Assembly (NCBI GenBank): GCA_000004985.1 | Contig: GG739604.1 | Length of the DNA: 1,034 bases | From: Naegleria gruberi | Taxonomy: Eukaryota | Reading direction: 5' to 3' (one strand) | Shown: positions 1 through 1,034 of the stretch, one piece after another | Layout: each line of letters starts with the position of its first letter | Position numbering within the stretch: the stretch's first letter is position 1 | Notes under the pieces: model-generated | Database searches by the model: none | Seen by the model: the letters and a program-made list of their open reading frames with translations, nothing else | Told to the model about the DNA's origin: nothing | Made by a program: the position numbers and the translations under genes

Positions 1-186
1 AATTGTTTTACTGATCTTGGAAATCTTCTTAATAGCATGTCCTGTTGCATCAGAAACAATAAGGTCACCATTGGACAATCTTGCAATCTTTTGTGGATCA
101 ACAAATTCTCCATTTCCACCAGCAAATGTACTAATTCCGTATATATAGGTTGCAGCTTCGTTGTTGGAATTGCCAGATGTAACATT
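1..186 (-). other. Downstream NHL-like segment that resumes after the EGF cassette (probable start of a further beta-propeller blade)
   Basis: The segment NVTSGNSNNEAATYIYGISTFAGGNGEFVDPQKIARLSNGDLIVSDATGHAIKKISKISKTI contains STFAGGNGE and GDLIVSDATGHAIKKI. These resemble the T-hAG-x-G and G-x-hYIAD-x-x-N-x-hRKI elements of the upstream NHL blades. The match is looser than for blades A-C. Confidence 0.45.
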
Positions 187-1034
187 ACAATTAGAACCAG
201 TCCATAAACCAGTGCATGAACATTGATCCAAAGATAAACAAGAACCGTGACCTCCACAAACAGAGCTATCATTTGAAGCAACACCAAAACATGAAGTGAC
301 ATTACAGTTTGCACTATACCATCCTTGTTTGCAAACACAAGTTTCAGTATTGACACAAGAACCATGTCCACTACAAACAGAATTATCATTTGAAGAAACA
401 CCAGAGCATGAAGTAATGTTACAGTTTGCGCCAGACCATCCTTGTTGACAAACACAAGTGTCAGTATCAAAACATAATCCATTTCCATTACAAGCAGAAT
501 TTTCACTAGCGTCTACATCATAACACACGGTTTGCTTGGTGGAGAGTAATCTAATTCTACCATTTTTAGCATCAGCAATATAAATTTCAACATCTGAAAC
601 AACCAAAATACCAGTTGGAAGAGATAATCCTCTTGAGGTGGCAATTCTACCATCAGAGAAAGAGGCAGTACCATTACCGGCAATTGAGACAATAGTACCA
701 TTGGTTAAAACCATTCTGACTCTGTTATTGTCAGTATCAGCAATCAACATTTCACCATTTGAGAGGAATGCAACATCAGTTGGATGATTCAAATTGGCAG
801 CAGTGGCCAAAATATTGTCACCATTGAATGGTCCAGCACCAGTACCAGCAATTGTTGTAATAACTCCACTAACATCAATCTTTCTAACTTTGAAATTATT
901 ACTATCTGAAATGTAAACTTCATCATTAACAACTCTAACACCATAAGCTTGAGATAAGGCAGCACTTATTGCTTGACCACCATCTCCAATATGACCTGAT
1001 TGACCATTACCAGCAAATGTGACAATAGTGCCAT
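1..1034 (-). CDS. Internal fragment of a large extracellular multidomain protein (NHL repeats, three EGF-like modules, then an NHL-like segment); partial at both ends
   Basis: The reverse-complement frame (codons at + positions 1030-1032 down to 1-3) has no stop in 344 codons, whereas every other frame is full of stops. The translation shows recognisable NHL-repeat and EGF-like motifs. Codon bias is strong and consistent (AGA/CAA/GAA/CCA/GGT), which argues for genuine coding sequence. There is no start or stop codon inside the window, so the gene extends beyond both edges. Confidence 0.9.
184..534 (-). repeat. Three tandem 117-nt coding repeat units (184-300, 301-417, 418-534) encoding the EGF-like modules
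   Basis: Direct alignment of + strand segments gives 241-300 vs 358-417 = 49/60 identical (82%) and 301-357 vs 418-474 = 47/57 identical (82%). The other halves of the units are more diverged, so similarity is mosaic. Confidence 0.8.
187..525 (-). other. Three tandem EGF-like cysteine-rich modules (non-calcium-binding type)
   Basis: Module 1 (nt 421-525) is CYDVDASENSACNGNGLCFDTDTCVCQQGWSGANC. Module 2 (nt 304-408) is CSGVSSNDNSVCSGHGSCVNTETCVCKQGWYSANC. Module 3 (nt 187-291) is CFGVASNDSSVCGGHGSCLSLDQCSCTGLWTGSNC. All three have six Cys with identical spacing C-x10-C-x5-C-x5-C-x-C-x8-C. The tail C-x-C-x2-G-W-x4-C fits the classical EGF-like signature (C-x-C-x(2)-[GP]-[FYW]-x(4,8)-C). The modules recur every 39 aa. 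None has a D-x-D-E-C calcium-binding motif at its N-terminus. Confidence 0.8.
541..1034 (-). other. NHL-repeat (beta-propeller blade) array, three blades
   Basis: Blade A (nt 877-1034) is TIVTFAGNGQSGHIGDGGQAISAALSQAYGVRVVNDEVYISDSNNFKVRKI. Blade B (nt 706-876) is VITTIAGTGAGPFNGDNILATAANLNHPTDVAFLSNGEMLIADTDNNRVRMVL. Blade C (nt 541-705) is TIVSIAGNGTASFSDGRIATSRGLSLPTGILVVSDVEIYIADAKNGRIRLLS. Each follows the NHL consensus (h-x-T-hAG-x-G ... GDGG-x-A ... L-x-x-P-x-Gh ... G-x-hYIAD-x-x-N-x-hR+h) with a period of about 55 aa. Confidence 0.8.

What the first reader, a model, noticed from the sequence alone, without database searches (positions are those of the whole stretch)
1..1034. Entire window is one unannotated open-ended ORF on the minus strand; the ORF track misses it
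The only ORF in the track (513-701, minus strand) is in a different frame and is almost certainly spurious. The real coding frame has no ATG-to-stop boundaries inside the window, which is why a complete-ORF finder does not report it. It reads through 344 codons with coherent domain content (NHL blades and EGF-like modules). The parent gene is longer than 1 kb and probably much longer.
Basis: seen in the sequence. Interest (0 to 1): 0.5.

Follow-up and report, generated by a model that had tools for sequence, protein, structure and literature searches.

The report
Naegleria NHL–EGF surface protein gene fragment
The window is an entire 1-kb orphan scaffold of the amoeboflagellate Naegleria gruberi, and it is one uninterrupted internal piece of a gene for a large NHL-propeller/EGF-repeat cell-surface protein that GenBank already annotates as a partial predicted protein, so it is real but ordinary.

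Summary
Minus-strand frame 3 (window 1032→1) reads 344 codons with no stop. Composition alone gives P≈2e-11, and 2000 shuffles never exceeded 205 codons. GC3 is 0.19. Pfam confirms NHL (71 bits, cutoff 20) and teneurin-type EGF (59.8 bits, cutoff 24.3).

Anatomy: three 56-aa NHL blades, then three 39-aa six-cysteine EGF modules (a 117-nt tandem repeat in the DNA), a short linker, and the first short blade of a second NHL array.

The translation is 100% identical to EFC35194.1/XP_002667938.1, "predicted protein, partial [Naegleria gruberi]", whose only contig is 1034 bp. The window is therefore the whole scaffold, and I could not extend it.

It belongs to a family expanded in Naegleria (N. gruberi EFC38199.1, EFC38200.1, EFC39316.1; several N. 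lovaniensis proteins). Full-length members run signal peptide, 6–17 NHL blades, 5–22 EGFs, sometimes a REJ domain, one TM helix and a short tail. One relative of unknown organism also carries a kinase. None has the YD/RHS shell, so these are not teneurins.

The likely role, ligand binding or adhesion at the cell surface, is inferred and was not shown here. Interest is low.

The parts
1..1032 (-). Open-ended coding frame, 344 codons, no start and no stop in the window. It is an internal fragment of an N. gruberi NHL-EGF protein gene (GenBank partial CDS EFC35194.1 covers aa 1-340).
868..1032 (-). NHL blade A (aa 1-55)
   Evidence: Pfam NHL/TEN_NHL; unit delimitation; AF2 pLDDT 84-95 with 4 strands per blade; Foldseek match to NHL propellers
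700..867 (-). NHL blade B (aa 56-111); best Pfam NHL stretch is aa 81-106
532..699 (-). NHL blade C (aa 112-167), last blade before the EGF array
   Evidence: collinear with the last blade of P0008/P0019/P0057
409..531 (-). EGF module 1 (aa 168-208), six Cys at aa 170/181/187/193/195/204
   Evidence: Pfam EGF_Teneurin best stretch 180-206; Cys positions
292..408 (-). EGF module 2 (aa 209-247), six Cys, 39-aa period
   Evidence: Pfam EGF_2 best stretch 215-243
175..291 (-). EGF module 3 (aa 248-286), six Cys, 39-aa period
236..505 (.). 117-nt tandem repeat, 2.3 copies, 81% matches. This is the DNA footprint of the three EGF modules, not a separate element.
   Evidence: TRF; in strict codon register the pairwise unit identity is 56-75% nt and 44-59% aa
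106..174 (-). Linker GNSNNEAATYIYGISTFAGGNGE (aa 287-309) between EGF3 and the next NHL blade
   Evidence: AF2 pLDDT <50
25..105 (-). Short NHL blade (aa 310-336), the first blade of a second NHL array. The frame runs on to the window edge (aa 337-344).
   Evidence: Pfam NHL on the tail alone: 20.3 bits (cutoff 20), E=5e-4. aa 294-338 (linker end plus this blade) are 82% identical to residues 26-70 of P0121, which directly follow its signal peptide and hold its first blade. Collinear EGF→NHL junctions in P0155, P0235, P0194.
513..701 (-). 62-aa ATG-to-stop ORF from the track: spurious, off-frame overlap with the real frame

Best explanation
The window is a complete 1034-bp unplaced scaffold of Naegleria gruberi. 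It consists entirely of an intron-free internal piece of one protein-coding gene on the minus strand. The encoded 344 aa are the last three blades of an NHL β-propeller, three tenascin/teneurin-type EGF modules, a short linker and the first blade of a second NHL array. The gene is a distinct paralog (at most 47% identical to any other retrieved protein) of a family expanded in Naegleria. Full-length members of that family are type I membrane proteins: signal peptide, one to three NHL propellers, an EGF array, sometimes a REJ domain, one TM helix and a short basic cytoplasmic tail. Shown here: the frame, the domains, the fold of the NHL part, the source and existing annotation, and family membership. 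Inferred: the parent protein is displayed on or secreted from the amoeba, with the NHL propellers as ligand-binding heads and the disulfide-rich, N-glycosylated EGF arrays as rigid spacers, working in adhesion or sensing of substrate or prey. Also inferred: the scaffold is small and orphaned because internally repetitive, multi-copy genes of this kind break assemblies.
For: Open frame and codon bias. Pfam NHL 71 bits (cutoff 20), EGF_Teneurin 59.8 (24.3), EGF_2 52.6 (22.1), TEN_NHL 41.5 (27.1). 100% identity to EFC35194.1 'predicted protein, partial [Naegleria gruberi]' on a 1034-bp contig. Regular 55-56-aa blade and 39-aa EGF periods with all 18 Cys in register, so no room for an in-frame intron. 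AF2 pLDDT 84-95 for aa 1-165; Foldseek top hits are all NHL propellers (9ifo_A 42% id, rmsd 2.1 Å over 164 columns). Paralogs with the same unit order, mapped with HMMs built from the window's own units. They are named as N. gruberi and N. lovaniensis proteins. Collinear N→E alignments at 36-47% identity. Collinear E→N junctions. Signal peptides, single C-terminal TM helices and basic tails in full-length members. Six N-x-S/T sequons in the fragment.
Against: Nothing in the window itself shows a signal peptide, a TM segment, a start or a stop, so topology and full architecture are extrapolated from paralogs that are under 50% identical. The EGF region and the tail are modelled with only moderate or poor confidence (pLDDT 50-68 and <50), and the tail only just reaches the Pfam NHL cutoff. 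I found no expression or functional data. Two literature searches for Naegleria plus NHL terms ('NHL repeat'; 'EGF-like' + 'NHL') returned nothing. A 1-kb scaffold assembled from a few reads of a repeat-rich family could in principle be mis-joined.
Confidence: 0.93

Rival explanations
1. Dead gene fragment: the orphan scaffold is a decaying or truncated copy of an NHL-EGF family gene that is no longer expressed.
For: No start or stop is visible. The scaffold is unplaced and tiny. The family is large and repetitive, which breeds partial duplicates.
Against: 344 codons with no stop or frameshift. All 18 cysteines and the NHL consensus residues are kept in register. Strong codon-position bias is retained. 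I could not compute dN/dS because no close ortholog was found.
Confidence: 0.04
2. Assembly chimera: reads from different NHL-EGF paralogs were joined, so the NHL-EGF-NHL order in the window is artificial.
For: The scaffold is very short and comes from a family with internally repeated 117-nt and about 168-nt units.
Against: Both junction types occur collinearly in independent relatives: NHL→EGF in P0008, P0019, P0237, P0256 and others, and EGF→NHL in P0155, P0235, P0194, P0242. The frame is continuous across both junctions.
Confidence: 0.02
3. Bacterial contaminant or recent bacterial transfer: the NHL part is bacterial DNA in the Naegleria assembly.
For: By summed score, the top database hits after the self-match are bacterial NHL-repeat proteins with up to 51% identity over the blades. 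The best solved relative is the NHL domain of Bacillus inaquosorum TLP (PMC13018210).
Against: Those hits cover only about 47-55% of the query, i.e. the blades. The same continuous frame carries eukaryote-type EGF modules. Codon usage is uniform and AT3-rich. The best full-architecture matches among those whose source I looked up are Naegleria proteins. NHL blades are highly consensus-like, so 45-50% identity across kingdoms is not unusual (my own knowledge). An ancient transfer of the propeller into the family's ancestor is not excluded.
Confidence: 0.01

Closest known systems
Naegleria NHL-EGF surface proteins (uncharacterised): N. gruberi EFC38199.1 (4502 aa), EFC38200.1 (1514 aa), EFC39316.1 (1219 aa); N. 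lovaniensis XP_044545200.1, XP_044543121.1, XP_044543576.1, XP_044553224.1
   Same: Same two unit types (56-aa NHL blade, 39-aa six-Cys EGF) in the same collinear order, 36-47% identity over 260-300 aa. The same genus encodes them.
   Different: The window is only a fragment and is at most 47% identical to any of them, so it is a separate paralog. Most members run NHL array → EGF array → TM. The window shows EGF followed by a new NHL array, as in P0242 (E8-N7), P0155 (N12-E14-N4) and P0151 (alternating). Its ends, signal peptide and TM are unknown.
Teneurins and bacterial teneurin-like proteins (TLPs; e.g. B. inaquosorum TLP, PDB 9IFO/9PT5, PMC13018210)
   Same: The NHL blades are the closest solved relatives (261 bits, 42% identity, rmsd 2.1 Å). 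The EGF modules match Pfam 'Teneurin-like EGF' PF23106. Both are extracellular combinations of EGF and an NHL propeller.
   Different: PMC13018210 defines the teneurin superfold as FN-plug + NHL + YD/RHS shell. No YD/RHS or FN-plug family was detected in the window or in any of nine family members scanned. The whole-domain EGF_TEN model is below its cutoff (38.8 vs 65). Teneurins are type II proteins with the EGFs N-terminal to a single propeller. This family is type I, with one to three propellers N-terminal to the EGFs.
Bacterial secreted NHL-repeat proteins (annotated 'NHL repeat-containing protein', 'sugar lactone lactonase YvrE', T9SS-sorted proteins)
   Same: 43-51% identity over the three blades, with the same about 56-aa 'long' NHL blade and the GDGGxA…YIAD..NxRIRK consensus.
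   Different: Among the listed hits, those carrying a bacterial source name or a T9SS sorting domain show no EGF family in their precomputed Pfam lists, and matches stop at the last blade (47-55% query coverage).
Tenascin-type EGF arrays / giant EGF-repeat proteins
   Same: The three-EGF block matches up to 35 times per protein at about 40% identity in 1-7 kaa proteins. The Cys spacing is C-x10-C-x5-C-x5-C-x-C-x8-C.
   Different: Most of those have EGF arrays without NHL propellers: only 29 of the 271 retrieved proteins have both.

Membership tests
NHL repeat (Pfam PF01436) β-propeller | Sequence score above the curated gathering cutoff | tested here: met
   71 bits vs cutoff 20, E=4.6e-20, 4 stretches; the tail alone gives 20.3 bits
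NHL repeat (Pfam PF01436) β-propeller | Four-stranded antiparallel blade fold superposable on solved NHL propellers | tested here: met
   AF2 pLDDT 84-95 for aa 1-165 with 4 strands per blade; Foldseek prob 1.00 to 9ifo, 7djl, 6g7w, teneurins and TRIM71
NHL repeat (Pfam PF01436) β-propeller | Closed six-bladed ring | not testable with these tools
   Only 3 blades of the first array and 1 of the second lie in the window. Paralogs have 6, 11-12 or 17 blades.
EGF-like domain (PF07974 / PF23106 teneurin-like EGF) | Score above the gathering cutoff | tested here: met
   EGF_Teneurin 59.8 vs 24.3; EGF_2 52.6 vs 22.1; EGF 33.3 vs 21.5; three stretches
EGF-like domain (PF07974 / PF23106 teneurin-like EGF) | Six cysteines per module in conserved spacing | tested here: met
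   18 Cys at 170/181/187/193/195/204, 209/220/226/232/234/243 and 248/259/265/271/273/282
EGF-like domain (PF07974 / PF23106 teneurin-like EGF) | 1-3, 2-4, 5-6 disulfide connectivity | not testable with these tools
   The AF2 model of this region is only moderate (pLDDT 50-68), and I did not analyse disulfides.
Teneurin / teneurin-like protein | YD/RHS-repeat shell | tested here: not met
   No RHS/YD family in the window or in nine family members, including three N. gruberi paralogs. The unseen parts of this particular gene cannot be checked.
Teneurin / teneurin-like protein | FN-plug preceding the NHL domain | tested here: not met
   No such match in paralogs; the region upstream of blade A is outside the window.
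Teneurin / teneurin-like protein | Teneurin EGF domain model PF25024 above its cutoff | tested here: not met
   38.8 bits vs cutoff 65
Teneurin / teneurin-like protein | Teneurin NHL domain model PF25021 above its cutoff | tested here: met
   41.5 bits vs 27.1. The same model also hits generic bacterial NHL proteins, so it is not specific.
Naegleria NHL-EGF type I surface protein family (informal) | Collinear NHL-array/EGF-array alignment to named Naegleria proteins | tested here: met
   P0264 47% over 263 aa, P0237 39% over 290 aa, P0256 37% over 287 aa, P0261 40% over 314 aa; names
Naegleria NHL-EGF type I surface protein family (informal) | N-terminal signal peptide and single C-terminal TM helix | not testable with these tools
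   Both ends of the gene lie outside the 1034-bp scaffold. They are present in P0164 and P0143; the TM helix is present in P0237, P0256 and P0008.

The most novel reading that the evidence does not exclude
Naegleria (Heterolobosea) independently built a large family of receptors from bacterial-type 'long' NHL propellers and teneurin-type EGF arrays. Its blades are as similar to bacterial NHL proteins (up to 51%) as to other Naegleria paralogs (47%), and it sometimes carries REJ domains. A relative of unknown organism also has an intracellular kinase. This would be either an ancient bacterial-to-protist transfer of the propeller or a convergent parallel to the teneurin ectodomain, used by a bacterivorous amoeba to recognise prey or substrate. 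The window would then be one multi-propeller member of that unexplored family.
Probability: 0.15. Interest if true: 0.4.

Novelty: already known. Interest (0 to 1): 0.1.

Why it matters
For the scan, this shows that a complete-ORF track will systematically miss genes on short eukaryotic scaffolds that are coding from end to end. The 'missing annotation' here is an artefact of the track, not of the public record. Biologically, the fragment adds nothing beyond the GenBank partial model. It does point to an uncharacterised, lineage-expanded NHL–EGF(–REJ) surface protein family in Naegleria, with a kinase-bearing relative of unknown organism. That family could be relevant to how free-living and pathogenic Naegleria adhere to and sense surfaces or prey. 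No function has been tested.

Tried and rejected
(1) The look-up of encoding contigs for P0001 found nothing on record, so I got no flanking DNA.

(2) A word-indexed protein search with the C-terminal 180 aa returned only 2 hits. The useful one was P0121. I used the exhaustive HMMER search for the rest.

(3) A 40-sequence MAFFT alignment with bacterial NHL proteins mis-registered the EGF region onto NHL blades. I discarded it for structure prediction and used the 5-sequence alignment A2.

(4) Literature searches for Naegleria + 'NHL repeat' and for Naegleria + EGF-like + NHL returned 0 papers.

(5) A metagenome scan to extend the gene found only 31-34% identical loci.

(6) Rfam and tRNA scans of both strands found nothing.

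(7) I considered and rejected teneurin membership because no YD/RHS or FN-plug was found and EGF_TEN is below cutoff.

(8) I considered that the window might be a haplotig or duplicate of a placed N. gruberi gene. I rejected this because the best paralog is 47% identical and P0001 stands as its own representative in the 50%-identity library.

(9) Off-frame ORFs (513-701 and 3-512, minus strand) have no family matches.

Full report
**Observation.** The window is 1034 nt with GC 0.37. Translating all six frames shows that minus-strand frame 3 (window 1032→1) has no stop in 344 codons. The other frames have 5 to 48 stops. From base composition alone, the probability of 344 stop-free codons is about 1.8e-11. 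In 2000 shuffles the longest open stretch averaged 77 codons and never exceeded 205.

GC by codon position is 0.43/0.50/0.19. Codon choice is strongly biased: AGA is the only Arg codon, CCA the only Pro codon, CAA the only Gln codon and GAA the only Glu codon. The ORF lister cannot report the frame because it omits ORFs that run off the source.

The 62-aa ORF at 513-701 (minus strand) sits in another frame, inside the real one, and has no Pfam match. The same off-frame stays open for a further 170 codons (window 3-512), also with no significant match. Its openness follows from the T-rich third positions of the real frame. That last step is my inference.

**Domain content.** Pfam gives the following, all above the curated cutoffs:
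- NHL: E=4.6e-20, 71 bits, cutoff 20
- EGF_Teneurin: 2.7e-16, 59.8 bits, cutoff 24.3
- EGF_2: 5.8e-14, 52.6 bits, cutoff 22.1
- TEN_NHL: 1.1e-10, 41.5 bits, cutoff 27.1

By inspection and unit alignment the anatomy is:
- NHL blades at aa 1-55, 56-111 and 112-167 (window 868-1032, 700-867, 532-699).
- Three 39-41-aa EGF modules at aa 168-208, 209-247 and 248-286 (window 409-531, 292-408, 175-291). Each has six cysteines with identical spacing.
- A linker, then a short NHL blade at aa 310-336 (window 25-105), which scores 20.3 bits against Pfam NHL on its own.

The EGF modules appear in the DNA as a 117-nt tandem repeat at 236-505. The strictly regular unit lengths leave no room for an in-frame intron. 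Six N-x-S/T sequons are present.

**Fold.** An AlphaFold2 model made from a 5-sequence alignment has pLDDT 84-95 for aa 1-165, with four strands per blade. It drops to 50-68 for the EGFs and below 50 for the tail. Foldseek against the PDB returns only NHL propellers at the top. The best is 9ifo_A at 42% identity and rmsd 2.1 Å over 164 columns, followed by SOQ1, NHLRC2, teneurins and TRIM71. Sequence search of the PDB agrees: 9pt5/9ifo score 261 bits, with the three blades matching repeatedly across residues 922-1255. According to PMC13018210, 9IFO/9PT5 is the Bacillus inaquosorum teneurin-like protein.

**Source and existing annotation.** The translation is 100% identical to P0001, which is EFC35194.1 / XP_002667938.1, "predicted protein, partial [Naegleria gruberi]". 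That protein is 340 aa, and its single contig is 1034 bp long. The window is therefore a whole orphan scaffold of the N. gruberi assembly, and the CDS is already in GenBank.

I could not extend the contig. The encoding-contig index has no record for P0001. A metagenome scan found nothing closer than 31-34% identity.

**Family.** An exhaustive HMMER search with aa 112-344 found 23,113 proteins at E≤1e-3. The top hits are 1-7 kaa proteins in which the EGF triplet matches up to 35 times. I mapped the window's own NHL and EGF units onto all 271 retrieved proteins. Twenty-nine have both unit types, typically as N6-E10, N12-E5, N11-E22 or N17-E11. A few show an EGF→NHL transition: P0155 N12-E14-N4, P0242 E8-N7, and P0151 with alternating units.

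Cluster look-ups name these proteins:
- N. gruberi EFC38199.1 (4502 aa) and EFC38200.1 (1514 aa), which have consecutive accessions and sit on the same 243,952-bp contig
- N. gruberi EFC39316.1 (1219 aa)
- five N. lovaniensis proteins

The best paralog is only 47% identical over 263 aa (P0264), and the others are 34-40%. The window is therefore a separate family member and not a duplicate of a placed gene.

The NHL→EGF junction is collinear with many relatives. The EGF→linker→NHL junction is collinear with P0155 1481-1578, P0235 30-123 and P0194 135-220. The end of the linker plus the tail blade (aa 294-338) is 82% identical to residues 26-70 of P0121, an environmental sequence from SRR3989338. 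Those residues follow P0121's signal peptide directly and hold its first blade. This marks the tail as the opening blade of a new propeller unit.

**Topology and accessory domains of full-length members.** A hydropathy scan shows N-terminal signal-like segments in P0164, P0143, P0161, P0150, P0061 and P0121. It shows a single C-terminal TM helix followed by a short basic tail in P0008, P0237, P0256, P0164, P0143, P0241 and P0248. Pfam adds a REJ domain in P0237 and P0151, and a protein kinase domain after the TM helix in P0150. No RHS/YD repeats appear in any member scanned.

**Interpretation.** The following are shown: a real coding fragment, three NHL blades plus one, three EGF modules, an N. 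gruberi origin, membership of the Naegleria NHL-EGF family, and the fact that it is not a teneurin.

The following are inferred from paralogs and from general knowledge of NHL propellers and EGF arrays. The parent is a large, glycosylated, disulfide-rich extracellular (probably type I membrane) protein with at least two propellers. The propellers bind ligands and the EGFs act as rigid spacers. A role in adhesion or in sensing of substrate or prey is plausible but untested.

The scaffold's small size is best explained by assembly fragmentation in a repeat-rich multigene family. That too is an inference.

**Rivals.**
- Pseudogene fragment (about 0.04). It is disfavoured by the intact frame and the conserved cysteines.
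- Assembly chimera (about 0.02). It is disfavoured because both junctions recur in independent relatives.
- Bacterial contaminant (about 0.01). It is disfavoured by the continuous frame with eukaryotic EGFs, the uniform AT3-rich codon usage and the Naegleria paralogs.

**Verdict.** The feature is ordinary and already in the public record, so interest is low. The only mildly novel angle is the uncharacterised, bacterial-like NHL plus teneurin-type EGF receptor family in Naegleria.

Noticed in passing
P0150 (2807 aa; organism not looked up): A relative with 17 NHL blades, 11 EGF units, a TM helix at about 2550-2568 and a C-terminal protein kinase domain (Pfam Pkinase 2e-33 at 2622-2788). This looks like a receptor kinase with an NHL-EGF ectodomain.
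   Followed up: partly
P0151 = EFC38199.1 and P0237 = EFC38200.1, both N. gruberi, same 243,952-bp contig: Two N. gruberi NHL-EGF genes with consecutive accessions sit on the same contig. Both also carry a REJ domain (PKD1/suREJ type) between the EGF array and the TM helix. This suggests tandem gene duplication and a polycystin-like ectodomain module in the family.
   Followed up: partly
L001 424-1794 (-) and 2105-3850 (+) (NCBI GCA_037189345.1, contig JBBCKJ010012907.1): Two divergently oriented NHL-EGF genes lie next to each other in an unidentified assembly, 38% identical to the window protein. I did not determine the organism.
   Followed up: no
window 3-701, minus strand, frame 1: The off-frame that holds the 62-aa track ORF has only 5 stops and ends in a 170-codon open stretch (window 3-512). 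It has no family match. It is a by-product of the T-rich third codon positions of the real frame.
   Followed up: yes
window 19-153 (aa 294-338) vs P0121 residues 26-70: The last 16 linker residues plus the first blade of the window's second NHL array are 82% identical to the residues that directly follow the signal peptide in an environmental protein (SRR3989338). The rest of that protein is only 41-50% identical to the window's blades. This hints at a conserved 'opening blade' module, or at a close Naegleria relative in that sample.
   Followed up: partly
window 532-1032 (NHL blades): Bacterial NHL proteins reach 45-51% identity over the blades, as high as the best Naegleria paralog at 47%. 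This could reflect strong repeat consensus or an old bacterial origin of the propeller. I built no phylogeny.
   Followed up: no
window 195-221: A 12-nt mini tandem repeat (AACCAGTCCATA, 2.2 copies, 86% matches) lies inside EGF3 coding sequence. It is probably chance.
   Followed up: no
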